Assembly (NCBI GenBank): GCA_964356225.1
Contig: CAYHGA010000003.1
Coordinates: 266 to 64,265 of the forward strand
DNA length: 64,000 bases
Source: an uncultured Gammaproteobacteria bacterium
GTDB lineage: Bacteria > Patescibacteriota > Microgenomatia > CAZETR01 > Amesbacteraceae
Reading direction: 5' to 3'
Part shown: positions 15,097 through 63,714 of the stretch, one piece after another
Position numbering within the stretch: position 1 is the first letter of the stretch
How the letters are laid out: every line of letters begins with the position of its first letter
The notes under the pieces: generated by a model
Databases searched by the model: none
Told to the model about the DNA's origin: nothing
Seen by the model: the letters and a program-made list of their open reading frames with translations, nothing else
Translations under genes and position numbers: made by a program

Positions 15097-15260
15097 TTGT
15101 GAACGTTTTTAATAAAATTCGAACTCATTTTAAACAAAAGTTGGCTCGAACTTCTTTTTAATGAATCGGCGGCTCTCGGCGAATTTGAATTTGGTCTTTA
15201 GGGCGCTCGCAACGGGCGGGGGCGTTGCGAGCGCCCCACCTTGCGAATCTTCGATTTCTT
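15097..15260. repeat. composite repeat R1 (AT-rich module + module b/c + 14-bp perfect GC hairpin 15201-15235)
   Basis: Positions 15097-15140 resemble the start of R2 (gtgaacgttttt..attcgaac). Positions 15140-15205 are an approximately 65-bp direct repeat of 19831-19896 with 3 mismatches. The hairpin is GGGCGCTCGCAACG-GGCGGGG-CGTTGCGAGCGCCC. Confidence 0.8.
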
Positions 15261-15344
15261 TTTTGGTGATCCCGCTAGTACCTTAAACAGACTTGGAATA
15301 TGCTTATTTGTTTGGGCTAAAAAATGCATAATAAAGTACATCAA

Positions 15345-16379
15345 CTATTTTTCTTTTAATACGTAATAACTTGCTTTGCCTTTGCCTTTTCTGCTGATTA
15401 AACCCAGCTCTATTAATTTCTTAATATCCAGTGCTCTAGTCGCCTTTGCCCGATCAACTAATTTAGCATAATCACGGTGAGCGATAAATCCTTTCTCTCT
15501 TATAAATTCAAGGATTTTTAAATGATAGGGTTGCAGCTGAGTTTCTGGATTTATTCCAACCTCTGGAAGCATTTTTTGAACTCTTAAAAGTTCGTCAATA
15601 ATTCCTTCCGTAAAATATTCCATCCAATCTGTAAAATCAATTTTATCTGCCAATTCATAATAATTGCCAAATTCTCCAATAGTTTGAAAATATTTACTAA
15701 CATTTTTGTTATAGTAATTCTCAAAACTAAACAGGTTAAATGTATTGAGTCCCATTTCAGCCAGTAATACCTTTGTGGCAAGACGAGTTGCCCTGCCATT
15801 TCCATCCATAAAAGGATGGATTATTACCATTTGCTTGTGAAAAATCCCAGCTAAAATAAGCGGATCAATTTTATCTTTATTGCTATTTATAAATTTAATT
15901 AGATCTTCTAAAAGTTTTCTTACATCTTTCGTATCAGGAGGCAAATAAATAACCTTTCTGGTCCTAGGATCATTTACAACTACTGGTTTGTCTCTTAATT
16001 TTCCAGATTCAAATTTAGGTAGTAATTCCTTTGTAATCTGTTCATGGATTTTTAGAATAAGAGCAAGAGTTAATCTTATTTGCTCTTTTTCAAGCTTTTC
16101 ATTTAAGTCTTGAAGTGCATGGTTGTAGTTTAAAACTTCTTTCTCACTATCCCTAATATGTTCAGGTTTTAATTTAAGAATTTTTTTTACTTCAGTTAAA
16201 GGTAGAGGGTTACCTTCGATACTGGTTGAGGCATAAGTTGAAACCGCTCTTGCAACTTTTTCGAATTCTAATAAGACAACATGAGGAAATCTTTTATCGT
16301 TTAATTCGTTCACTAGAGTATTAATTCTCTTAATATTAGATAGGAGACGATCCGTAATGGTGTATTTTGGCTGAAACAT
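15345..16379 (-). CDS. Fic/DOC family protein (AMPylase-like), class II with N-terminal inhibitory motif
   Basis: Fic motif HPFMDGNGRATR. The N-terminal STSIEGN matches the (S/T)xxxE(G/N) inhibitory motif. Confidence 0.85.
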   Translation of the reverse strand: MFQPKYTITDRLLSNIKRINTLVNELNDKRFPHVVLLEFEKVARAVSTYASTSIEGNPLPLTEVKKILKLKPEHIRDSEKEVLNYNHALQDLNEKLEKEQIRLTLALILKIHEQITKELLPKFESGKLRDKPVVVNDPRTRKVIYLPPDTKDVRKLLEDLIKFINSNKDKIDPLILAGIFHKQMVIIHPFMDGNGRATRLATKVLLAEMGLNTFNLFSFENYYNKNVSKYFQTIGEFGNYYELADKIDFTDWMEYFTEGIIDELLRVQKMLPEVGINPETQLQPYHLKILEFIREKGFIAHRDYAKLVDRAKATRALDIKKLIELGLISRKGKGKASYYVLKEK

Positions 16380-16391
16380 ATACTCTAATTA

Positions 16392-16559
16392 TAGACGAAT
16401 ATTAGACGATTTACAAGGAGTAAAATTTCGATCCTCGTGACCAAGATGGATCAGAAATCCGTCCTCAATATTCCCCTCAAGCATTTCAAATTCATACCTT
16501 TTATCTTCCTCCTCATAAAGTTCCGGTCCCCTCAAAGGAAGCTCGGAAGGAACTCTCAT
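16392..16559 (-). CDS. small ORF (about 55 aa) immediately upstream of fic, possibly co-transcribed
   Basis: Manual translation gives MRVPSELPLRGPELYEEEDKRYEFEMLEGNIEDGFLIHLGHEDRNFTPCKSSNIRL. Its stop lies 13 nt before the fic start. It is shorter than the ORF-track cutoff. Confidence 0.3.
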
Positions 16560-16594
16560 TTAACTTCTTTTATCTATTTTTAACAATTGTTAAC

Positions 16595-16706
16595 TTGTGA
16601 ACGTTTTTGAACAAATTCGAACGTATTTCAAGTCAAACTGTTAGCTCGCCCCGCCTTGGCGAGGCTCGCAATGTGAGCGCGGCGCCCCCCACCCGCCGCG
16701 CTTCCG
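16595..16706. repeat. repeat R2, left arm of a 112-bp perfect inverted repeat flanking the MFS gene
   Basis: Positions 16595-16706 are the exact reverse complement of 18199-18310. It contains GC hairpins (GCGCGGCG-CCCCCCACC-CGCCGCGC). Confidence 0.9.
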
Positions 16707-16772
16707 TTATTTTTTGCGCGCTCGATTCTTCTCTCACTTCGTTCGAGATATGATTTTTGATATAGTGATTGT

Positions 16773-17972
16773 ATGCTAAACAACTTTAAGGGCATTACTT
16801 GGCGTTATTACGTTTTTTCTTTTCTTGCGGGATTATCTTTTTATACCGCCGCCTTAATCCCATTTTATACTAATTGGGGACACATTTCACTAACTCAAGT
16901 CCAATTCCTACAAGCATGGTTAATGTTTTGGGCTTTTGTTTTGGAAGTACCAACTGGGGTTATTGCAGATAAGTTCGGAAGAAAATATTCAGTTGCTTTA
17001 GGTTGTCTACTAACTTTCTTCTCGTTTTTGATATATGGCTCGTTTCCTAATTTTTCAGCTTTTCTCGTTGCAGAATTTTTGGCAGCTGCTGGTATGGCTC
17101 TAATGTCTGGAGCAAGTGAAGCTCTGCTATACGATTCTTTAAAAGATGAAAATAACGAAAGCAAATTTAAAAATATTTTTGGTCGGTCATTCTCTATTGG
17201 TCAAATAGCGGCAATTATTTCTGCGCCTGTTGGTGGTTTTATCGCATCTAAGTACGGTTTAAATGCTCCGATGTTGTTTACAGCGTTTCCAGTTTTAATT
17301 GCTTCCATAATTTTAGTAACTGCAAAAGAGCCATCACAAAAATATTCAAAATCAGAAAAGAAAAATTATTTAGATATTGCGAGAAACGGCGTATCTTCTT
17401 TTATTCATCATAAAGTACTAAGGTCATTGGCTTTCAACGGAATTTTGGTTTATACAGGGGTTTACTTTTTAGTATGGCTCTATCAACCCATACTACAAAA
17501 TTTGGGTGTTGCAATAATATTTTTCGGATTTATCAGAGCGTTATTCTCTTTGTCAGGAATGGTTTTTAACCATGACTTACAGCTTATTGAAAAACTATTT
17601 GGATCAAATAAACAATTTTTTAATATAACCGCAGTTTTAACTACGATATCCTTATTATTAGTTGCCGTATTCCCAAATATTATTACAGTTTTAATGGCGA
17701 TTGTTTTATTGGGTGGATTAGGTCAGGCAAGATTTACTGCATTGAATTCGTATATGAACCACCACATAGTCTCAGAACAACGCGCGACAACGTTATCAAC
17801 TATTTCAATGTTAAATAGAATTGTTCTAATTGCATTAAATCCTCTGATTGGATTCATGGCAGATCAATCAATAAGAGGAGCATTTCTATTTCTAGCATTT
17901 TTACCATTATTGGCCATTATCTTTGTTCCTATAGATTTGTATAAAAACACTACAGAGACGGTAACTTCATAA
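16773..17972 (+). CDS. MFS transporter
   Basis: 399 aa with about 12 TM helices and MFS-like motifs (GVIADKFGRK). Confidence 0.75.
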   Translation: MLNNFKGITWRYYVFSFLAGLSFYTAALIPFYTNWGHISLTQVQFLQAWLMFWAFVLEVPTGVIADKFGRKYSVALGCLLTFFSFLIYGSFPNFSAFLVAEFLAAAGMALMSGASEALLYDSLKDENNESKFKNIFGRSFSIGQIAAIISAPVGGFIASKYGLNAPMLFTAFPVLIASIILVTAKEPSQKYSKSEKKNYLDIARNGVSSFIHHKVLRSLAFNGILVYTGVYFLVWLYQPILQNLGVAIIFFGFIRALFSLSGMVFNHDLQLIEKLFGSNKQFFNITAVLTTISLLLVAVFPNIITVLMAIVLLGGLGQARFTALNSYMNHHIVSEQRATTLSTISMLNRIVLIALNPLIGFMADQSIRGAFLFLAFLPLLAIIFVPIDLYKNTTETVTS

Positions 17973-18198
17973 GTTTGACGTAAGAAAAATTATTTCTATT
18001 GTTTTTGTAAAATTATTTTTGTATATTGTAAGTGTACTCAACTTTTTCAGGTCGTCTTTTTTAATGGCCGTTCTGGACAATTTAAGGCGACTTAAGTTGA
18101 GTACAACCAGAGCGGCCATTTGAGTTTAGTAATAAGTACTTTAAAATTTTTGCGTTTTTCTTTTTCTGCTTTCAGCGGAATGTTCGAGCCGACTTTTT

Positions 18199-18310
18199 CG
18201 GAAGCGCGGCGGGTGGGGGGCGCCGCGCTCACATTGCGAGCCTCGCCAAGGCGGGGCGAGCTAACAGTTTGACTTGAAATACGTTCGAATTTGTTCAAAA
18301 ACGTTCACAA
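18199..18310. repeat. repeat R2', right arm of the 112-bp inverted repeat
   Basis: Reverse complement of 16595-16706. It is preceded at 18160-18198 by a diverged module-b copy (aaaagtcggctcgaac). Confidence 0.9.
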
Positions 18311-18407
18311 TTTTGGAAATGGAAGCAGAAGTGGGGGCAGCGCTGGCTGCGCCCCCCTCCGCAGACAGCGCTGCAAAGGCCAAATCCAAATTCGCCGAGA
18401 GCCGCCG
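18305..18407. repeat. repeat R3, left arm of a 103-bp perfect inverted repeat flanking the recombinase gene
   Basis: Positions 18305-18407 are the exact reverse complement of 19858-19960. It contains the hairpin GCAGCGCTGGCTGCG-CCCCCCTC-CGCAGACAGCGCTGC and overlaps R2' by 6 bp. Confidence 0.9.
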
Positions 18408-18462
18408 TAAAAAAAGCATGAAGAAAAACGCAAAAATTAAAGAACTTTAAGGAATATAAAAA

Positions 18463-20004
18463 ATGATTAAATATATTGCTTACTGCCGAAAATCCACAGA
18501 TGAAAAAGATAAACAGGTTTTATCTATTGAAGCGCAAATTGCCGAACTCAAGGAGTTTGCCAAAAGAGAGGGCTTAACGGTCTCTGAATTCATTACAGAA
18601 GCCAAGACTGCTAAGATTCCGGGGAGAGTACAATTTGCTGAAATCTTAAAAAGAATAGAGAAAGGACAAGCCAACGGAATATTATCGTGGCACCCCGACC
18701 GTCTCGCTAGAAATTCGATAGATGGCGGGAAAATAATTTATCTTTTGGATACTGGCAAACTCCTTGATTTAAAATTCCCCTCGTTTTGGTTTGAGTCCAC
18801 ACCACAAGGCAAATTCATGCTCTCAATCGCCTTTGGCCAATCAAAATATTATGTCGATAATCTGTCCGAAAATGTAAAGCGAGGAAACAGACAAAAACTT
18901 CGTAATGGTGTCTGGCCCAGTAAAGCACCGTATGGCTATATCAATAACCCCAAAACGAGGGGAATAGATATTGATGAAGAAAAATCAAAAATTGTTAAAA
19001 AATCATTTCAGCTTTTTGCTGATGGAAGTATTTCTTTTACGGCTATTTCTCAATTTATGTTTAAGTTTGGGATTAAGCGAGAAGGAGAAAAACCTGTAAA
19101 AGTTGGTCAAGTTAAAAATATGCTTGCCAATAAATTTTATCTGGGAATTCTCAAATACGCCGGAGAATATTATCAAGGTTCACACAAAACCTTTATCAGC
19201 AAAAAGCTGTTTGACGAAGTTCAAAAACAAGTTGAGAAAATCGAGCGACCAAGACAAAAAGGCCACAATTTCGCTTTTGCAGGTCTGGCGACCTGCGGCG
19301 AATGCGGCGCCGCAATCACGGCGGAACAACATATAAAGAAATACAAAAACGGCACCGGCCAAACTTTTATCTATTACCGCTGTACTAAAAAGTTGAAAGC
19401 CTGTACGCAAAAATATATTTCCGAATCAGATACAGAGGAGCAGTTAAGAAAAATTGTTCGTGATTGCGGCTTGCATGAAGGCTGGGAACCGTATTTTGAA
19501 AAATGGATCACCGAAGCCGAAGAAAAAGACAAACTGACCGCCGAAACGGAAAGTAAAAAACTCGATACCCAAACCCAAGAAACAGAAATCAAATTAAACC
19601 GATTGCTTGACGGCTACCTCGACCAAGTTATTGAGCCGGATATTTACAAACAAAAGAAAAATGAATTATTTGACGAAAAACTGAAGTTAGAGGAGAATAA
19701 ATCACAAATTGAGAAAAATGGAAGTTGTTGGCTCGAACCTATGAGGGAATTCGTAAATTGCGCCTTGCAGGCGCAAAAAATCGCGCGCGCAAAAAATAAT
19801 TGCCATGATTTATCAATCATGGCAAAAAAAGTCGGCTCGAACTTCTTTTTAATGAATCGGCGGCTCTCGGCGAATTTGGATTTGGCCTTTGCAGCGCTGT
19901 CTGCGGAGGGGGGCGCAGCCAGCGCTGCCCCCACTTCTGCTTCCATTTCCAAAATTGTGAGGCGGGTGGGACTCGAACCCACGACCCTTAGCTTAAAAGG
20001 CTAG
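18463..20004 (+). CDS. large serine recombinase (resolvase/invertase-type N-domain + recombinase domain + zinc ribbon)
   Basis: Catalytic-serine region YCRKSTDEKDKQ, recombinase domain and zinc ribbon CGECG...CTKK. The ORF has no stop until it has read through repeat R3' and into tRNA-Lys (C-terminal ...VGLEPTTLSLKG), so the true C-terminus is uncertain, roughly 19830-19900. Confidence 0.85.
   Translation: MIKYIAYCRKSTDEKDKQVLSIEAQIAELKEFAKREGLTVSEFITEAKTAKIPGRVQFAEILKRIEKGQANGILSWHPDRLARNSIDGGKIIYLLDTGKLLDLKFPSFWFESTPQGKFMLSIAFGQSKYYVDNLSENVKRGNRQKLRNGVWPSKAPYGYINNPKTRGIDIDEEKSKIVKKSFQLFADGSISFTAISQFMFKFGIKREGEKPVKVGQVKNMLANKFYLGILKYAGEYYQGSHKTFISKKLFDEVQKQVEKIERPRQKGHNFAFAGLATCGECGAAITAEQHIKKYKNGTGQTFIYYRCTKKLKACTQKYISESDTEEQLRKIVRDCGLHEGWEPYFEKWITEAEEKDKLTAETESKKLDTQTQETEIKLNRLLDGYLDQVIEPDIYKQKKNELFDEKLKLEENKSQIEKNGSCWLEPMREFVNCALQAQKIARAKNNCHDLSIMAKKVGSNFFLMNRRLSANLDLAFAALSAEGGAASAAPTSASISKIVRRVGLEPTTLSLKG
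19858..19960. repeat. repeat R3', right arm of the 103-bp inverted repeat
   Basis: Reverse complement of 18305-18407. It is preceded by module b at 19824-19857 and overlaps the 3' end of tRNA-Lys at 19958-19960. Confidence 0.9.
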
Positions 20005-20030
20005 TGCTCTACCAACTGAGCTACCGCCCC
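19958..20030 (-). tRNA. tRNA-Lys (anticodon UUU)
   Basis: The minus-strand sequence GGGGCGGTAGCTCAGTTGGTAGAGCACTAGCCTTTTAAGCTAAGGGTCGTGGGTTCGAGTCCCACCCGCCTCA folds as a cloverleaf with anticodon loop CTTTTAA. No CCA is encoded. Confidence 0.8.
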
Positions 20031-20058
20031 TCACTGAACTTATCAAGAGCATTTTATA

Positions 20059-20316
20059 TCAAACTTGTCTCTTTATAAACTCACGACCTCTAAACGACTT
20101 AAGTTGCTTTTCACGAGACAACGCCTCGTTTCTAGACCCAAAAACTTCTTTATAAACAAGACTCCAATTTCCACGATTGATTTTAGTATAACTTCTCTTA
20201 CTTGAAATCAATTCACCATTGTGTCTTTTAAGTCGCTTTTCCAAATTACTGGTCTGGCCTATATAGATTTTTCCACTTTTGTTCTTAATAACATAAACTA
20301 CAAATACTTTCTCCAT
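20059..20316 (-). CDS. small GIY-YIG nuclease, YhbQ/UPF0213-like
   Basis: 85 aa with VYVIKNKSGKIYIGQTSNLEKRLKRHN (GIY-YIG). The start codon abuts the shared CTTTTAAGCT anticodon-loop segment of the disrupted tRNA-Lys copy. Confidence 0.8.
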   Translation of the reverse strand: MEKVFVVYVIKNKSGKIYIGQTSNLEKRLKRHNGELISSKRSYTKINRGNWSLVYKEVFGSRNEALSREKQLKSFRGREFIKRQV

Positions 20317-20343
20317 AGCTTAAAAGTCCGCCAGCTGGCGGAT

Positions 20344-20365
20344 CTACCAACTGAGCTACCGCCCC
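20344..20365 (-). pseudogene. 5' fragment (nt 1-22) of a second, disrupted tRNA-Lys copy
   Basis: The first 22 nt are identical to the 5' acceptor and D-arm of tRNA-Lys(UUU). Then a 16-bp palindrome TCCGCCAGCTGGCGGA replaces tRNA nt 24-31, followed by the conserved CTTTTAAGCT and the GIY-YIG ATG. Confidence 0.65.
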
Positions 20366-20417
20366 TCACTGAACTTATCAAGAGCATTTTATATCAAACT
20401 TGTCTCTTTATAAACTC
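20344..20417. repeat. 74-bp perfect direct repeat (copy B) of 20009-20082 (copy A): tRNA-Lys 5' part plus 52 bp of upstream flank
   Basis: The string ctaccaactgagctaccgcccctcactgaacttatcaagagcattttatatcaaacttgtctctttataaactc occurs twice, bracketing the GIY-YIG gene. Confidence 0.9.
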
Positions 20418-61867: not shown

Positions 61868-62035
61868 TTAGCCAAATTGCGCTATCGGAGTTAAAGACAA
61901 TCTTGTTAAAAGATTATGGCTGGTCGGGTGACGATAAAACTACCACCCAGCTTGCAAATTATTTTTTGGTATCTCTTGAAGCGGTACTTTTGAGTCCAAA
62001 AGTTGACAAAACACCCAGAAAGGAGGCAAAGTGAT
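61865..62035 (+). CDS. small ORF (56 aa) immediately upstream of and overlapping the integrase start; RDF/excisionase candidate
   Basis: Manual translation gives MISQIALSELKTILLKDYGWSGDDKTTTQLANYFLVSLEAVLLSPKVDKTPRKEAK. It is not in the ORF track. Confidence 0.25.
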
Positions 62036-63659
62036 AGTCAACGATCTGTCAAAAATGAAAATTATATCCACTGTCCAAAAACGATACTATTTAGTCTACT
62101 TGCGAAAAAGTAGCGAGTCAGAAGACCGCCAAGTTCAAAGTATCGAAGACCAAAGAAAAGAAATTAAGCCCCTAATTGAGGATAGAAGTCTCGAAATTTT
62201 AGAAGTGTTTCAAGAATCCAGATCGGCAAAAGCTCCAGGTAGAGTTGAATTTGACCGCATGGCCAAACTCATAAGCGAGCGAGAGGATATTAAGGGTATT
62301 GTTTGCTGGAAATTAAACCGTCTTAGCCGTAATCCTGTGGACACTGGGGCGCTACAATGGCTGATACAGTCTAAAAAGATCGAAGAGATTGTTACTCCAA
62401 GCAAGACTTATACCGATGTTGATAGTGACTTTATTATGGCTGTGGAAGGCGCTCAAGCCAATAGATTCATACGGGATCTAAAAGAAGACACTTGGCGAGG
62501 CATGAAATCCAAAATTGAAAAAGGGATGGCTCCGGTATTAGCCGTTCCGGGGTATCTAAACGACAAAACAAAAGATCAAGGTAAGAAAGATATTATTGTG
62601 AATCCAGTGCAGTTCCCACTAATGCGTAAACTTTTTGATATGGCTTTGACAGGTAACTATTCGATTACTGATCTTTATGAGCAGGCAGATAAAATGGGCA
62701 TCAGAACTAATCGAGGGAAAAGAATTAGTCATTCTCGAATGGCAGAATTATTGAAAGATATATTTTATATAGGTAAGTTTGTTTATGGTGGTCAGACATA
62801 TGATGGCATCCATAAACCAATGTTATCTATGCAGGAATTTGAACTGTTGCAAGAGATATTCTCCAAAGGAGATAGACCAAGATCATCCGTTCACCACAAT
62901 CCCTATTCTGGGGATCTAATTAAATGTGTCTGCGGAAGATCGCTATCACTTGACCCCAAAGTAAAGACATATAAAAATGGTAAGTCACAAGAGTTTGTTT
63001 ACTTACGATGCAATCGTCCACACTATCAACCCAATAGTGCTTGTCCAAAATCTTCAATCAACATTAAAGATCTGGAAAAACAGATCCTTGAGCAACTGGG
63101 ATCAATCCTCATTTCACCTGATCTTATTAAATGGGGAATCGAAAGATTGAATGAAAAGAATATGGACAAACAAAAGTCTCGTGAAGCTGAAAATCTAGCA
63201 ATCAAACAGGCTTATGATCGAGTGGTAATCCAATTAGATAGTCTTCTTCAATTAAAGCTGTCACCCAATAATATCAATGGAAGTTTATTGTCGGATATGG
63301 AATATGCAGAGCAAAGAGTGATCCTTTTGAAGGAAAGAGATAAATACAATGTCCAACACAGTTCGTTGGACAAGAATAGAGAAGATTGGGCACAGATGGC
63401 TGTGGCAGTGTTTAACTTCGCCGCAAAAGCTCAAGAGAAGTTTGCTACCGGTAATTTGGAAACCAAACGAGACATTTGTAAGATCTTTGGAACCAGCATG
63501 ATTTTGAATGGAAAAAAGCTCGAAGTTTTATCCAGAACGCCGTTTATTTTTATAAAAGATGCTTTAAGAGTCACCGAACCTAACAAAATGCCTATTTATA
63601 GCTCCGAAGCGACACTTCATGCCTTTGAAGATAACTTTGGGGTGGTGTACGGGAGTTGA
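62031..63659 (+). CDS. large serine recombinase (integrase), paralog of 18463-20004
   Basis: YLRKSSESEDRQ catalytic region, recombinase domain and a Zn-ribbon (CVCGRS...CNRPHY...C). GTG start. The 3' end overlaps tRNA-His by 19 nt. Confidence 0.85.
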   Translation: MIVNDLSKMKIISTVQKRYYLVYLRKSSESEDRQVQSIEDQRKEIKPLIEDRSLEILEVFQESRSAKAPGRVEFDRMAKLISEREDIKGIVCWKLNRLSRNPVDTGALQWLIQSKKIEEIVTPSKTYTDVDSDFIMAVEGAQANRFIRDLKEDTWRGMKSKIEKGMAPVLAVPGYLNDKTKDQGKKDIIVNPVQFPLMRKLFDMALTGNYSITDLYEQADKMGIRTNRGKRISHSRMAELLKDIFYIGKFVYGGQTYDGIHKPMLSMQEFELLQEIFSKGDRPRSSVHHNPYSGDLIKCVCGRSLSLDPKVKTYKNGKSQEFVYLRCNRPHYQPNSACPKSSINIKDLEKQILEQLGSILISPDLIKWGIERLNEKNMDKQKSREAENLAIKQAYDRVVIQLDSLLQLKLSPNNINGSLLSDMEYAEQRVILLKERDKYNVQHSSLDKNREDWAQMAVAVFNFAAKAQEKFATGNLETKRDICKIFGTSMILNGKKLEVLSRTPFIFIKDALRVTEPNKMPIYSSEATLHAFEDNFGVVYGS

Positions 63660-63714
63660 ACCCGCTAAAACTGCCTCCACAGGGCAGCGCCTAAACCGTT
63701 CGGCACACACCACC
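63641..63714 (-). tRNA. tRNA-His (anticodon GUG) with encoded G-1
   Basis: G(-1)+GTGGTGTGTGCCGAACGGTTTAGGCGCTGCCCTGTGGAGGCAGTTTTAGCGGGTTCAACTCCCGTACACCACC. Perfect 7-bp acceptor stem, anticodon loop CTGTGGA and discriminator C. Confidence 0.75.

What the first reader, a model, noticed from the sequence alone, without database searches (positions are those of the whole stretch)
15097..19960. Repeat-bracketed gene cassettes (Fic, MFS, serine recombinase) forming a compact putative mobile or invertible module at tRNA-Lys
Within 4.9 kb there are five copies of a modular repeat family. Each copy has an AT-rich module (gtgaacgtttttgaacaaattcgaac), module b (gtcggctcgaacttctttttaatgaatcgg), module c (cggcggctctcggcgaatttggatttgg) and GC-rich perfect hairpins with C6/G5-7 loops. 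Each of the three genes is bracketed by copies. The outer copies at 15140-15205 and 19831-19896 are about 65-bp direct repeats with 3 mismatches. The only recombinase in the locus is a 513-aa serine recombinase whose reading frame runs through the right-hand repeat into tRNA-Lys. This looks like either the att and recombination sites of a minimal integrative element carrying a Fic toxin-like gene and a transporter, or a recombinase-driven cassette-shuffling locus. I do not recognise it as a described element.
Basis: seen in the sequence. Interest (0 to 1): 0.8.

Follow-up and report, generated by a model that had tools for sequence, protein, structure and literature searches.

The report
tRNA-targeting serine-recombinase element with mirrored ends
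The repeats are the recombination-site arms of a small mobile element, one of thousands in Patescibacteria, whose serine recombinase inserts it at the very end of tRNA genes and which keeps a perfect mirror copy of its own joining site inside itself, an arrangement I could not find described.

Summary
The repeats are real and confined to this locus within the window. They are not five equivalent copies. They form two abutting near-perfect inverted-repeat pairs: IR1 (115 nt) around the MFS gene and IR2 (103 nt) around the recombinase. A diverged outer copy lies at 15097-15289. Modules b, c and one hairpin are the coding 3' end of the 513-aa large serine recombinase (LSR).

The LSR family is very large in Patescibacteria. 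In about 58 of 65 related loci the ORF runs into a convergent tRNA, covering more than 14 tRNA identities.

The junctions read X-core-A (left), P-core-tRNA (right) and an inverted P-core-A between cargo and recombinase. The shared core is 2-7 nt, at tRNA positions ~71-74. The A arm carries a T-loop-like TCGAAC placed 4-5 bp further out than in the tRNA. This is the known attP/attB offset of serine integrases.

The intact element is 16597-19960. Fic is a separate cassette, and 15097-15289 is a solo remnant.

Arms evolve in concert: 13-17 differences between related elements, 0 within. Orientation is fixed, so shuffling is unsupported. A conserved structured leader RNA precedes the LSR. I found no empty site and no published description.

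The parts
15097..15289 (+). Solo remnant of a second family member. It consists of an A-type end (15099-15133), the 17-mer AAAAGTTGGCTCGAAC (15136-15151), then the last ~150 nt of a recombinase gene (P2 arm). It translates as VGSNFFLMNRRLSANLNLVFRALATGGGVASAPP..SISFLV, has its own GC hairpin at 15201-15236, and ends in the core GGTGA (15285-15289).
   Evidence: tblastn 70% over LSR residues 456-499; read directly from the sequence.
15290..15344 (-). Pseudo-tRNA-like 3' end of the Fic cassette (minus strand GTCTGTTTAAGGTACTAGCGGGATCACC). It serves as the target half-site for the solo remnant.
   Evidence: The same end is conserved downstream of Fic homologues in L115 and L110.
15345..16379 (-). 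Fic/DOC protein (344 aa) with the HPFMDGNGRATR motif. It is an independent cassette, not cargo of the LSR element.
   Evidence: Homologues at 80-86% identity stand alone in housekeeping contexts.
16557..16596 (-). X flank: the native tRNA-trailer-type sequence (AAGTTAACAATTGTTAAAAATAG.. on the minus strand) displaced from tRNA-Lys by the insertion.
   Evidence: It is 89-91% identical to sequence that directly follows tRNA-Glu in L110 and a tRNA-like end in L115.
16592..16706 (+). IR1 left arm, forming junction J1 (attL-like: X, core GTGA at 16597-16600, A arm). The arm holds an A module with TCGAAC 16 nt from the core and two GC hairpins, the second followed by TTATTTTTTG.
16773..17972 (+). 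Cargo gene: an MFS transporter (399 aa).
18022..18120 (+). Conserved -10 box TATATT (18022-18027) followed by a structured leader RNA on the recombinase strand. Helix II is 18033-18043/18095-18105 plus 18050-18056/18086-18092. A U6 run lies at 18057-18062. Helix I is 18063-18076/18107-18120, interleaved with helix II.
   Evidence: No Rfam match.
18138..18198 (-). Backbone motifs on the cargo side of J2: an inverted copy of the box AAGAAAAACGCAAAAATT (18145-18162) and an inverted 17-mer GTTCGAGCCGACTTTTT (18182-18198).
   Evidence: (I9, I13) and the alignment.
18199..18313 (-). IR1 right arm (A').
   Evidence: I1, 99%.
18305..18407 (-). IR2 left arm (P'). Together with A' and the core TCAC (18305-18308) it forms J2, an intact inverted copy of the joined-ends site P-core-A.
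18421..18445 (+). Box AAGAAAAACGCAAAAATTAAAGAAC upstream of the recombinase start.
18463..20004 (+). Large serine recombinase (513 aa). Catalytic R9, S11 and D79-R80-L81-x-R83 are invariant. The ORF runs through IR2R and 44 nt into the antisense of tRNA-Lys.
19800..19825 (-). Intrinsic-terminator-like hairpin plus T run on the tRNA strand, embedded in the recombinase ORF. It is the likely terminator for tRNA-Lys read-through.
19858..19960 (+). IR2 right arm (P), with module c and GC hairpin 19891-19928. It forms junction J3 (attR-like: P, core GTGA at 19957-19960, tRNA).
19957..20030 (-). tRNA-Lys(UUU), intact, and the integration target. The crossover falls at tRNA positions ~71-74, and the T-loop TCGAAC lies 12 nt from the core.

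Best explanation
Window 16597-19960 is an integrated 3.4-kb mobile element. It belongs to a very large, Patescibacteria-wide family driven by a large serine recombinase (LSR) that inserts at the extreme 3' end of tRNA genes.

Shown from sequence:
- The left junction is X-core-A, where X is the native tRNA trailer.
- The right junction is P-core-tRNA.
- A third site, P-core-A in inverted orientation (J2), lies between the cargo unit and the recombinase unit. That is why each unit is bracketed by a ~100-nt perfect inverted repeat.
- The core shared by all three junctions is 2-7 nt. It is exactly 2 nt in two elements and corresponds to tRNA positions ~71-74.
- The A arm carries the T-loop box TCGAAC 4-5 bp further from the core than the tRNA does.
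- The P arm is also the coding 3' end of the recombinase.

Inferred:
- X-core-A and P-core-tRNA are attL and attR, made by attP (P-core-A) x attB (trailer-core-tRNA) recombination with a 2-bp staggered cut in the last acceptor-stem base pairs.
- The zinc-ribbon domain reads the universal T-loop box. This would explain why closely related recombinases sit at many different tRNAs.
- Excision of cargo plus recombinase would give a circle carrying two identical attP sites in inverted orientation.
- J2 is a live attP-type site. In most family members it also sits between the recombinase's promoter/leader RNA and its ORF, so it probably doubles as an autoregulatory operator and couples expression to site integrity.

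Not explained: what keeps the paired arms identical (see the Against line).

The outer copy 15097-15289 is a solo remnant of another family member at the pseudo-tRNA end of an unrelated Fic cassette.
For: LSR identity:
- Domain architecture and invariant catalytic residues.
- Roughly 8000 homologues, many at 80-90% identity, and at least 587 loci in species-representative genomes, all Patescibacteria-type MAGs.

tRNA association:
- A convergent tRNA overlaps the ORF end in about 58 of 65 untruncated loci, covering more than 14 tRNA identities.
- Most of the remaining loci have degenerate or masked tRNA-like ends.

Conserved architecture:
- IR2 of at least 60 nt in 48 elements.
- IR1 in 31 of 39 elements with enough flank. 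Cargo units are 0.75-5.7 kb.

Junction logic:
- The X|A, inverted P|A and P|tRNA pattern with a 2-7 nt three-way core holds in all 15 elements examined. The core is exactly GC in L017 and L018.
- TCGAAC lies at 16-17 nt in the A arm (40 of 45) and at 12 nt in the tRNA (38 of 45). The shift is +4 in 25 elements and +5 in 19.
- This matches the 5-bp ZD-motif shift between attP and attB of LI integrase (PMC3783163).

Other support:
- X is homologous to a native tRNA trailer in other genomes.
- J2 appears active: in L057 a tRNA replaces A', and L105 is a chain of units joined only by P|A junctions.
- Cargo is diverse and accessory: transporters, an R-M system, a reverse transcriptase, Shedu.
- The leader RNA with a -10 box lies on the LSR strand in 28 loci. 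Its order is motif-J2-LSR in at least 20.
Against: - No empty site, circle junction or alternative orientation was found. Contigs sharing the flanking proteins all carry the element or break at the repeats, and two metagenome scans for predicted empty sites found nothing. Mobility is therefore inferred from distribution, not observed.
- A circle with two equivalent attP sites should integrate in both orientations, yet the recombinase points at the tRNA in about 58 of 58 loci and in 24 of 24 contigs of one element. This needs an extra assumption, namely selection against the flipped state.
- The P half-site has only a weak T[CG]GAAG-like motif about 13 nt from the centre, so its attP-type status is not established.
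- No recombination directionality factor candidate is conserved in the element.
- Conservative serine recombination does not by itself explain why arms stay identical within an element while related elements differ by 13-17 of 95 positions.
- In the distant subfamily (L088, L091) J2 lies upstream of the promoter and leader, so the operator role is not universal.
Confidence: 0.72

Rival explanations
1. Invertible-cassette switch (shufflon or Hin/Min-like). The recombinase flips the IR-bracketed MFS and recombinase segments to switch expression. The tRNA association would be secondary.
For: Both units are flanked by long perfect inverted repeats that include the crossover core in inverted orientation, which is exactly the geometry of invertible segments. 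Cargo genes occur in either orientation relative to the recombinase in different elements.
Against: - The recombinase orientation relative to the tRNA is constant in about 58 of 58 loci and in 24 of 24 contigs of one element across samples.
- The leader RNA motif is always on the J2 side of the cargo unit, so the cargo unit is not seen flipped either.
- All contigs of the source population agree.
- Insertion next to more than 14 different tRNAs needs an integration activity in any case.
Confidence: 0.1
2. Two independent TIR-bounded transposons sit side by side: an IS-like recombinase unit (P'..P) and a non-autonomous cargo unit (A..A'). Each would be inserted separately by the serine recombinase.
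For: - Each unit has its own terminal inverted repeats.
- In L088 and L091 the recombinase unit contains its own promoter and leader.
- In L057 the recombinase unit alone sits between two tRNAs.
- In L105 the units alternate in a chain.
Against: - A conservative serine-recombinase insertion leaves the crossover dinucleotide as a direct repeat on both sides. Here the core flanking each single unit is inverted (TCAC..GTGA) in all elements with an asymmetric core.
- The cores are direct only across cargo plus recombinase together.
- In most elements the recombinase promoter and leader lie in the cargo unit, so the two units form one functional element.
Confidence: 0.08
3. The mirrored arms exist because the element passes through a single-stranded stage, for example uptake by natural transformation. 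In that stage A pairs with A' and P' with P, rebuilding one duplex attP from one strand, as the folded attP of CTX phage does. Mismatch correction in that stem would keep the arms identical.
For: - It would explain both the universal inverted attP copy and the strict concerted evolution of the arms: 0 differences within elements against 13-17 between relatives.
- Arm identity starts exactly at the core.
- The elements carry no replication or transfer genes.
Against: - Serine recombinases are known to act on duplex DNA and cut all four strands.
- There is no evidence here for a single-stranded form.
- The model does not by itself explain the fixed orientation.
- Ordinary gene conversion between 100-nt repeats is a simpler source of homogenisation.
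Confidence: 0.08
4. Generic genome-wide REP/MITE-type repeats that merely happen to cluster here.
For: The repeats are short, hairpin-rich and GC-rich in an AT-rich genome (arm GC 0.57-0.61 against 0.32-0.39 in the genes). A solo copy exists at 15097-15289.
Against: - No copy lies anywhere else in the 64-kb window.
- In 80 other genomes the same sequences sit at fixed positions around the recombinase gene.
- Modules b and c are conserved protein-coding sequence.
Confidence: 0.02

Closest known systems
Phage-type large serine integrases (A118/LI, Bxb1, phiC31, SPbeta SprA)
   Same: - The same domain set and catalytic residues.
- The nearest solved structure is SPbeta SprA (9dxh, E 9e-18).
- Junctions behave as attL and attR with a 2-bp exchange point.
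- One half-site motif is displaced 4-5 bp between the element-type and host-type half-sites, as in LI attP/attB.
   Different: - The element is not in a prophage and has no conserved RDF.
- The target is the 3' end of essentially any tRNA gene rather than one fixed attB.
- The site arms are ~100 nt with GC hairpins rather than 40-50 bp sites.
- The integrated element keeps an intact inverted attP copy.
- The recombinase ORF runs through its own att arm into the target.
LSR transposons and cassettes that excise as circles (Tn4451 TnpX, Tn5397 TndX, SCCmec CcrAB)
   Same: - Small cargo elements moved by an LSR alone, with no obvious RDF.
- Best NCBIfam similarity is to CcrB and XisF.
- SCCmec also inserts at the 3' end of a conserved gene.
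   Different: - Scores are far below family cut-offs (96 bits against 900 for CcrB).
- From my own knowledge, those elements have short imperfect end repeats, no internal mirror copy of the joint, and no tRNA targeting.
Tycheposons of Prochlorococcus
   Same: Compact cargo-carrying elements that use tRNA genes as integration hot spots and carry defence or transport cargo. A minority have an LSR.
   Different: - 910 of 937 tycheposons and related cryptic elements use tyrosine recombinases, and many carry replication genes.
- No double inverted-repeat architecture is described for them.
- The host phylum and recombinase lineage differ.
Serine-invertase systems (Hin, Gin, Min of p15B) and shufflons
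   Same: Segments are bracketed by inverted recombination sites next to a serine recombinase gene.
   Different: - Those systems use small serine recombinases, 26-bp sites and an enhancer, and both orientations coexist (my own knowledge).
- Here the orientation is fixed, the enzyme is an LSR, and the element is inserted at many different tRNAs.
Yeast 2-micron plasmid and the folded attP of CTX phage (analogies only)
   Same: - The predicted excised circle would have two identical inverted repeats, each holding the recombination site, dividing it into two unique segments, one of which encodes the recombinase. This is the 2-micron layout.
- Inverted att copies that could pair in a single strand resemble CTX phage.
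   Different: - Both analogues use tyrosine recombinases.
- No replication origin or single-stranded stage is evident here.
- These comparisons rest on my own knowledge and were not tested.

Membership tests
Large serine recombinase (serine integrase) superfamily | N-terminal resolvase catalytic domain with catalytic Ser and the DRLxR motif | tested here: met
   PF00239 E 2.9e-20. R9, S11, D79, R80, L81 and R83 are invariant in 24 sequences.
Large serine recombinase (serine integrase) superfamily | Recombinase domain plus zinc ribbon with an embedded coiled coil | tested here: met
   PF07508 E 1.7e-12 and PF13408 E 1.2e-9. Long helices 339-419 appear in the model, which has low overall confidence.
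Serine-integrase att system | Hybrid junctions sharing a 2-bp crossover with an element-borne site | tested here: met
   The three-way shared core is 2-7 nt in 15 elements and exactly GC in L017 and L018. This is sequence inference only; no activity was tested.
Serine-integrase att system | The same outer (ZD) motif in attP-type and attB-type half-sites, about 5 bp closer to the centre in attB | tested here: met
   TCGAAC lies at 16-17 nt in the A arm and at 12 nt in the tRNA, a shift of +4 or +5 in 44 of 45 elements. Reference: PMC3783163. The P half-site could not be assigned.
Serine-integrase att system | A recombination directionality factor encoded in the element | tested here: inconclusive
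   No conserved extra ORF was found. Cargo differs in every element, and the smallest cargo units hold one 122-133-aa ORF.
Prophage | Phage structural or replication genes; relatives in viral contigs | tested here: not met
   The element holds only an MFS gene and the LSR. Only 3 weak hits were found in 2.9 million viral contigs.
Serine invertase / shufflon | Both orientations of the bracketed segment coexist | tested here: not met
   One orientation in about 58 of 58 loci, in 24 of 24 contigs of one element, and in all contigs of the source population. Assembled contigs cannot exclude a rare minority state.
Serine invertase / shufflon | Small serine recombinase with a C-terminal HTH | tested here: not met
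   The protein is a 513-aa LSR. The Mpi-type invertase model scores 19.7 bits against a cut-off of 272.
REP / MITE repeat family | Many dispersed non-coding copies unlinked to a particular gene | tested here: not met
   No copy lies outside 15097-19960 in 64 kb. In other genomes copies are always positioned around the LSR. The whole source genome was not available.
SCCmec Ccr recombinases | Score above the NCBIfam equivalog cut-off | tested here: not met
   CcrB 96.5 bits against 900; CcrA 73 bits against 700.
IS-like unit with a serine transposase (IS607, Tn4451 type) | Crossover dinucleotide directly repeated on both sides of the mobile unit | tested here: not met
   For the recombinase unit alone the flanking cores are inverted (TCAC..GTGA). 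They are direct only for cargo plus recombinase together.
Rfam RNA families (for the leader motif) | Match to a curated covariance model | tested here: not met
   Only tRNAs matched at E<=1 in the window region, plus sub-threshold chance matches outside the motif. In five other loci the only match overlapping the motif was a chance-level one far below the gathering score (psRNA6, 18.5 bits against 60, L021).

The most novel reading that the evidence does not exclude
A previously undescribed class of serine-recombinase mobile elements, present in thousands of copies across Patescibacteria. These elements would:
- recognise a universal feature of tRNA genes (T-loop box plus acceptor end) and so use nearly any tRNA as a landing site;
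- carry inside themselves a mirror copy of their own attachment site, kept identical to the outer arms by an unknown copying process;
- place the recombinase under a conserved two-helix leader RNA switch.

If the mirror site and the RNA take part in the reaction (for example a folded single-strand attP, or RNA- or tRNA-sensed control of recombination), this would be a new mode of serine-recombinase transposition.
Probability: 0.3. Interest if true: 0.88.

Novelty: new variant of a known kind. Interest (0 to 1): 0.74.

Why it matters
- Serine integrases are prized genome-engineering tools because they need no host factors, but each normally has one fixed target. A natural family that reads the universal T-loop/acceptor end of tRNA genes would offer ready-made landing sites in almost any organism. 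It would also be a natural experiment in how the zinc-ribbon domain reads DNA.
- Biologically, these elements appear to be a main vehicle for accessory and defence genes in the tiny genomes of Patescibacteria, where mobile elements are poorly characterised.
- Their retained live attP could drive tRNA-to-tRNA rearrangements.
- The strict concerted evolution of the arms and the conserved leader RNA are unexplained features that can be tested directly.

Tried and rejected
- **Empty-site search.** Look-ups of the exact flanking proteins (GH-like, MFS, LSR, His phosphatase) returned only contigs with the same arrangement or contigs that break at the repeats. Two metagenome scans for predicted empty junctions, one for the window and one for L106, gave 0 hits.
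- **Inversion evidence.** None in any contig. The 1.4-1.5-kb MFS contigs ending in both arms are the usual assembly behaviour at inverted repeats and are uninformative.
- **Viral origin.** Rejected.
- **Rfam.** Nothing but tRNAs for the hairpins or the leader motif.
- **Structure prediction of the LSR.** Mean pLDDT 61 and pTM 0.31. This is too poor to decide whether residues 420-513 fold, so no fold search was run.
- **Small ORF on the minus strand over the leader motif (50 aa).** Rejected. It is not conserved (stop after 8 codons in L014), and the G.U pattern places the structure on the plus strand.
- **Bridge/guide-RNA idea for the leader.** Only eyeballed, with no obvious complementarity to the cores. 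Not pursued.
- **Module a as a degenerate tRNA 3' half.** Only the TCGAAC box is shared, at a different spacing. Kept as a minor alternative.
- **Fic as cargo.** Rejected.
- **Literature.** Eight search calls, one rejected for a malformed term. None found a description of this family. One search located the LI integrase reference.

Full report
**1. The observation**

- Module searches with up to 3 mismatches give 3, 3 and 2 hits in the 64-kb window, against 0.00 expected. All hits lie between 15097 and 19960.
- The repeat finder shows the copies are not five equivalent units but a precise geometry.
  - IR1 is 16592-16706 / 18199-18313 (115 nt, 99%) and brackets the MFS gene.
  - IR2 is 18305-18407 / 19858-19960 (103 nt, 100%) and brackets the recombinase gene.
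  - The two pairs abut and share the 4 nt TCAC.
- A more diverged direct copy lies at 15133-15234 (84% to 19824-19925).
- The genes are Fic (15345-16379, minus), MFS (16773-17972), and a 513-aa protein with Resolvase, Recombinase and zinc-ribbon domains (18463-20004).
- That ORF ends 44 nt inside the antisense of tRNA-Lys(UUU), 19957-20030.
- The window is a Hainich groundwater contig, ERZ1292616, 69.6 kb.

**2. Modules b, c and the hairpin are coding sequence of a very large recombinase family**

- A protein search returned about 8000 relatives, over a hundred clusters at 60-90% identity. Where named, they are from Patescibacteria.
- In an alignment of 24 of them, the C-terminus ..KKVGSNFFLxxRRLSAxLNxxFAALSAEGGAASAAPxxxSISxxV is conserved. 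This is the translation of modules b and c, the GC hairpin and the spacer.
- The sequences diverge only afterwards, into G-x-E-P-x-T-like tails that are antisense translations of different tRNA T-arms.
- One homologue has an N-terminal extension that is the translation of an upstream inverted copy of the same arm.
- The copy at 15140-15290 translates in frame as VGSNFFLMNRRLSANLNLVFRALATGGGVASAPP..SISFLV. It is the 3' end of another family member, and its hairpin has a different but still complementary stem.

**3. The family is tied to tRNA 3' ends**

- A scan of one genome per species found at least 587 loci, and 80 were fetched.
- In about 58 of the roughly 65 loci not cut at the 3' side, a convergent tRNA overlaps the end of the ORF.
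- The tRNAs include Lys, Leu, Arg, Tyr, Glu, Pro, Trp, Val, Gln, Gly, Ile, Ser, Ala and Met.
- Most exceptions have degenerate or N-masked tRNA-like ends.
- Recombinases more than 80% identical to the window's sit at Lys, Leu, Arg, Tyr and Glu tRNAs.
- No locus has the tRNA only on the 5' side.

**4. The double inverted repeat is a conserved design**

- IR2 of at least 60 nt is present in 48 elements.
- IR1, abutting IR2, is present in 31 of 39 elements with enough flank. It encloses 0.75-5.7 kb.
- This holds for recombinases down to about 45-55% identity and in chromosome-level assemblies (L052, L062).
- The enclosed cargo differs in every element. It includes MFS, EamA, VTT and ABC transporters, a CN hydrolase, an EEP nuclease, a HindIII-type R-M pair, a reverse transcriptase and a Shedu SduA protein.

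**5. Junction logic**

In all 15 elements examined the three junctions follow one pattern:

- J1 is X-core-A.
- J2, read on the other strand, is P-core-A.
- J3 is P-core-tRNA.

The stretch shared by all three is 2-7 nt and corresponds to the last acceptor-stem pairs, the discriminator and sometimes CCA. In L017 and L018 it is exactly GC, so the exchange point is confined to 2 bp, as expected for a serine recombinase. By alignment with those elements, the central dinucleotide in the window is GA (19959-19960, tRNA positions 71-72).

The A arm always contains TCGAAC or a one-mismatch variant.

| Half-site | Distance of TCGAAC from the end of the shared core | Count |
|---|---|---|
| A arm | 16-17 nt | 40 of 45 |
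| tRNA (T-loop) | 12 nt | 38 of 45 |

The shift is +4 in 25 elements and +5 in 19. For LI integrase, the zinc-ribbon motif lies at positions 16-24 in attP and is shifted 5 bp toward the centre in attB (PMC3783163).

I therefore read A as an attP-type half-site that mimics the T-loop box, and the tRNA as the attB-type half-site. The inner parts of P and A share a TTTTGGAAA-like dyad. The outer P motif is weak (T[CG]GAAG about 13 nt out), and I could not classify it.

**6. Boundaries in the window**

- The sequence left of J1 (16557-16596) is 89-91% identical to sequence that directly follows tRNA-Glu in L110 and a tRNA-like end in L115. It is a native tRNA trailer, as expected for the displaced half of attB.
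- The intact element is therefore 16597-19960.
- Fic is not its cargo. Fic homologues at 80-86% identity are widespread in Microgenomates. They stand alone between housekeeping genes, with no recombinase nearby.
- Fic homologues end in a conserved pseudo-tRNA-like sequence, GTCTGTTTAAGGTACTAGCGGGATCAC.
- In the window that end is joined, through the core GGTGA, to the P2 arm of the 15097-15289 copy. The other side of that copy is a short A module followed directly by the 17-mer AAAAGTTGGCTCGAAC.
- That 17-mer occurs both after A arms and before P arms. The copy is best read as a solo: an internally deleted element inserted at a pseudo-target.

**7. Is J2 active, and do the units flip?**

- In L057 the A' half of J2 is replaced by a tRNA-Glu in the predicted orientation, so the recombinase unit lies between two tRNAs. 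This is the expected product of J2 recombining with another tRNA.
- L105 is a chain: tRNA-Lys | recombinase 2 | cargo | recombinase 1 | next cargo. Every internal junction is P|A, in both orientations.
- Flipping is not seen. Orientation is constant across loci, across 24 contigs of one element and in the source population.
- The leader motif is always on the J2 side of the cargo unit.

**8. Concerted evolution**

Related elements differ at 13-17 of 95 P-arm positions (L055/L056, L033/L038, WIN/L014, WIN/L021). Within each of these elements the two arms are identical. IR1 is 100% identical in 19 of 30 elements.

Conservative exchange at the core cannot produce this. Possible causes are gene conversion, break repair at the core, or pairing of the arms in a single-stranded stage. 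I could not discriminate between them, and this remains the main unexplained feature.

**9. A structured leader RNA**

Beyond the A' arm the backbone is conserved across subfamilies. In order it contains:

- the 17-mer;
- a small variable hairpin;
- a box AAGAAAAACGCAAAAATT, mirrored on the recombinase side;
- a ~100-nt element found in 28 loci.

On the recombinase strand the ~100-nt element forms two interleaved helices with strong covariation.

| Helix | Cells paired | Pairs changed on both sides |
|---|---|---|
| Helix I | 98.6% | 10 of 14 |
| Helix II-c | 96.5% | 7 of 11 |

- None of 500 shuffles reached the observed scores.
- Many G.U pairs would be C.A on the other strand, which places the structure on the recombinase strand.
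- The element is preceded by an invariant TATAxT box, often TGnTATAAT, about 7 nt before helix II.
- The connecting loops (U6, then 1-2 nt) look too short for both helices to be fully formed at once, so I read it as a conformational switch. This is an inference.
- The order is motif-J2-LSR in at least 20 elements. It is J2-motif-LSR, 31-47 nt before the start codon, in L088 and L091. It is therefore the recombinase's leader.
- No Rfam family matches.

**10. Comparison with known systems**

- The enzyme is a bona fide LSR but belongs to no curated subfamily. CcrB scores 96 bits against a cut-off of 900, XisF scores 95 against 375, and the nearest structure is SPbeta SprA.
- It is not phage-borne.
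- It works like a serine-integrase element (attP x attB giving attL and attR). It resembles Tn4451/SCCmec-type cassettes in size and in lacking an RDF, and tycheposons in using tRNAs and carrying defence cargo.
- It differs from all of them in five respects:
  - pan-tRNA targeting through a T-loop mimic;
  - ~100-nt arms with covarying GC hairpins;
  - an intact inverted attP retained inside the integrated element;
  - an ORF that reads through its own att arm into the target;
  - the leader RNA.
- Six literature searches found no description.

**11. Verdict**

- The interpretation as an integrative element at tRNA-Lys is right in kind but wrong in extent. The shuffling alternative is not supported.
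- The locus is one member of a large, apparently undescribed variant of serine-recombinase elements.
- Mobility itself and the roles of J2, the hairpins and the leader RNA are inferred, not shown.

Noticed in passing
window 20008-20417: A perfect 75-nt direct repeat (20008-20082 / 20343-20417) brackets an 85-aa GIY-YIG endonuclease ORF (20059-20316, minus). The repeat consists of the 5' part of tRNA-Lys plus its upstream region. The upstream copy continues as a tRNA 5' half with a different anticodon stem, up to the anticodon loop, and is followed directly by the ORF start. Contig L011 from another sample has a single copy and no ORF. This is either a presence/absence polymorphism of a homing-endonuclease cassette that rebuilds the tRNA 5' half, or an assembly collapse.
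   Followed up: partly
window 62031-63713: A second large serine recombinase (542 aa, 27% identical to the first) also reads into a convergent tRNA (tRNA-His, 63638-63713), but has no long inverted repeats. Targeting of tRNA 3' ends may be broader among Patescibacteria LSRs than the family studied here.
   Followed up: partly
window 18022-18120; 27 further loci (e.g. L033:5574-5681, L014:5565-5672): A conserved ~100-nt RNA with two interleaved, strongly covarying helices lies behind a TATAxT box, on the recombinase strand. It has no Rfam match. It may be a new regulatory leader or switch.
   Followed up: yes
window 15290-16596; L110:5923-7078, L115:5925-7118: The Fic gene is a highly conserved (80-86% aa) stand-alone cassette found in different housekeeping contexts across Microgenomates. 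It ends in a conserved pseudo-tRNA-like sequence. Many of its contigs are only 1.2-4 kb long, as if flanked by repeats. It may itself be mobile or act as a decoy target.
   Followed up: partly
L013:7396-7519 and L052:7396-7521 (P-arm hairpin loops): An identical ~25-nt insert (GCCCTACGTTCCTCAGGGTAAAG, itself a mini-hairpin) sits in the loop of the P-arm GC hairpin in two different subfamilies. It appears as an extra APYVPQGK in protein P0007.
   Followed up: no
L057:5802-7588: A recombinase unit is flanked by tRNA-Glu(UUC) on one side and tRNA-Glu(CUC) on the other, in inverted orientation, with no A arm. This is what recombination of the internal site with a second tRNA gene would leave. Such events would rearrange chromosomes between tRNA genes.
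   Followed up: partly
L105:4467-9560: A chain of units fills the region next to tRNA-Lys in a genome syntenic with the window: tRNA-Lys | LSR (478 aa, different arm type) | cargo | LSR (513 aa) | A-type end of a third element carrying a type I R-M system. The same tRNA site is thus occupied by different family members in related genomes.
   Followed up: partly
window 19800-19825 (minus strand): An intrinsic-terminator-like hairpin with a T run lies on the tRNA strand inside the recombinase ORF (the codons for NNCHDLSIMAKK). The same tail, TTATTTTTTGCGCGC, follows the second hairpin of the IR1 left arm (16707-16721). The element seems to supply terminators that insulate its att sites.
   Followed up: no
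window 16557-16596; L110:5120-5154; L115:4669-4707: A conserved tRNA-trailer sequence containing the palindrome TTAACAATTGTTAA follows tRNA 3' ends in several Microgenomates genomes. Its function is unknown (terminator or processing signal?).
   Followed up: no
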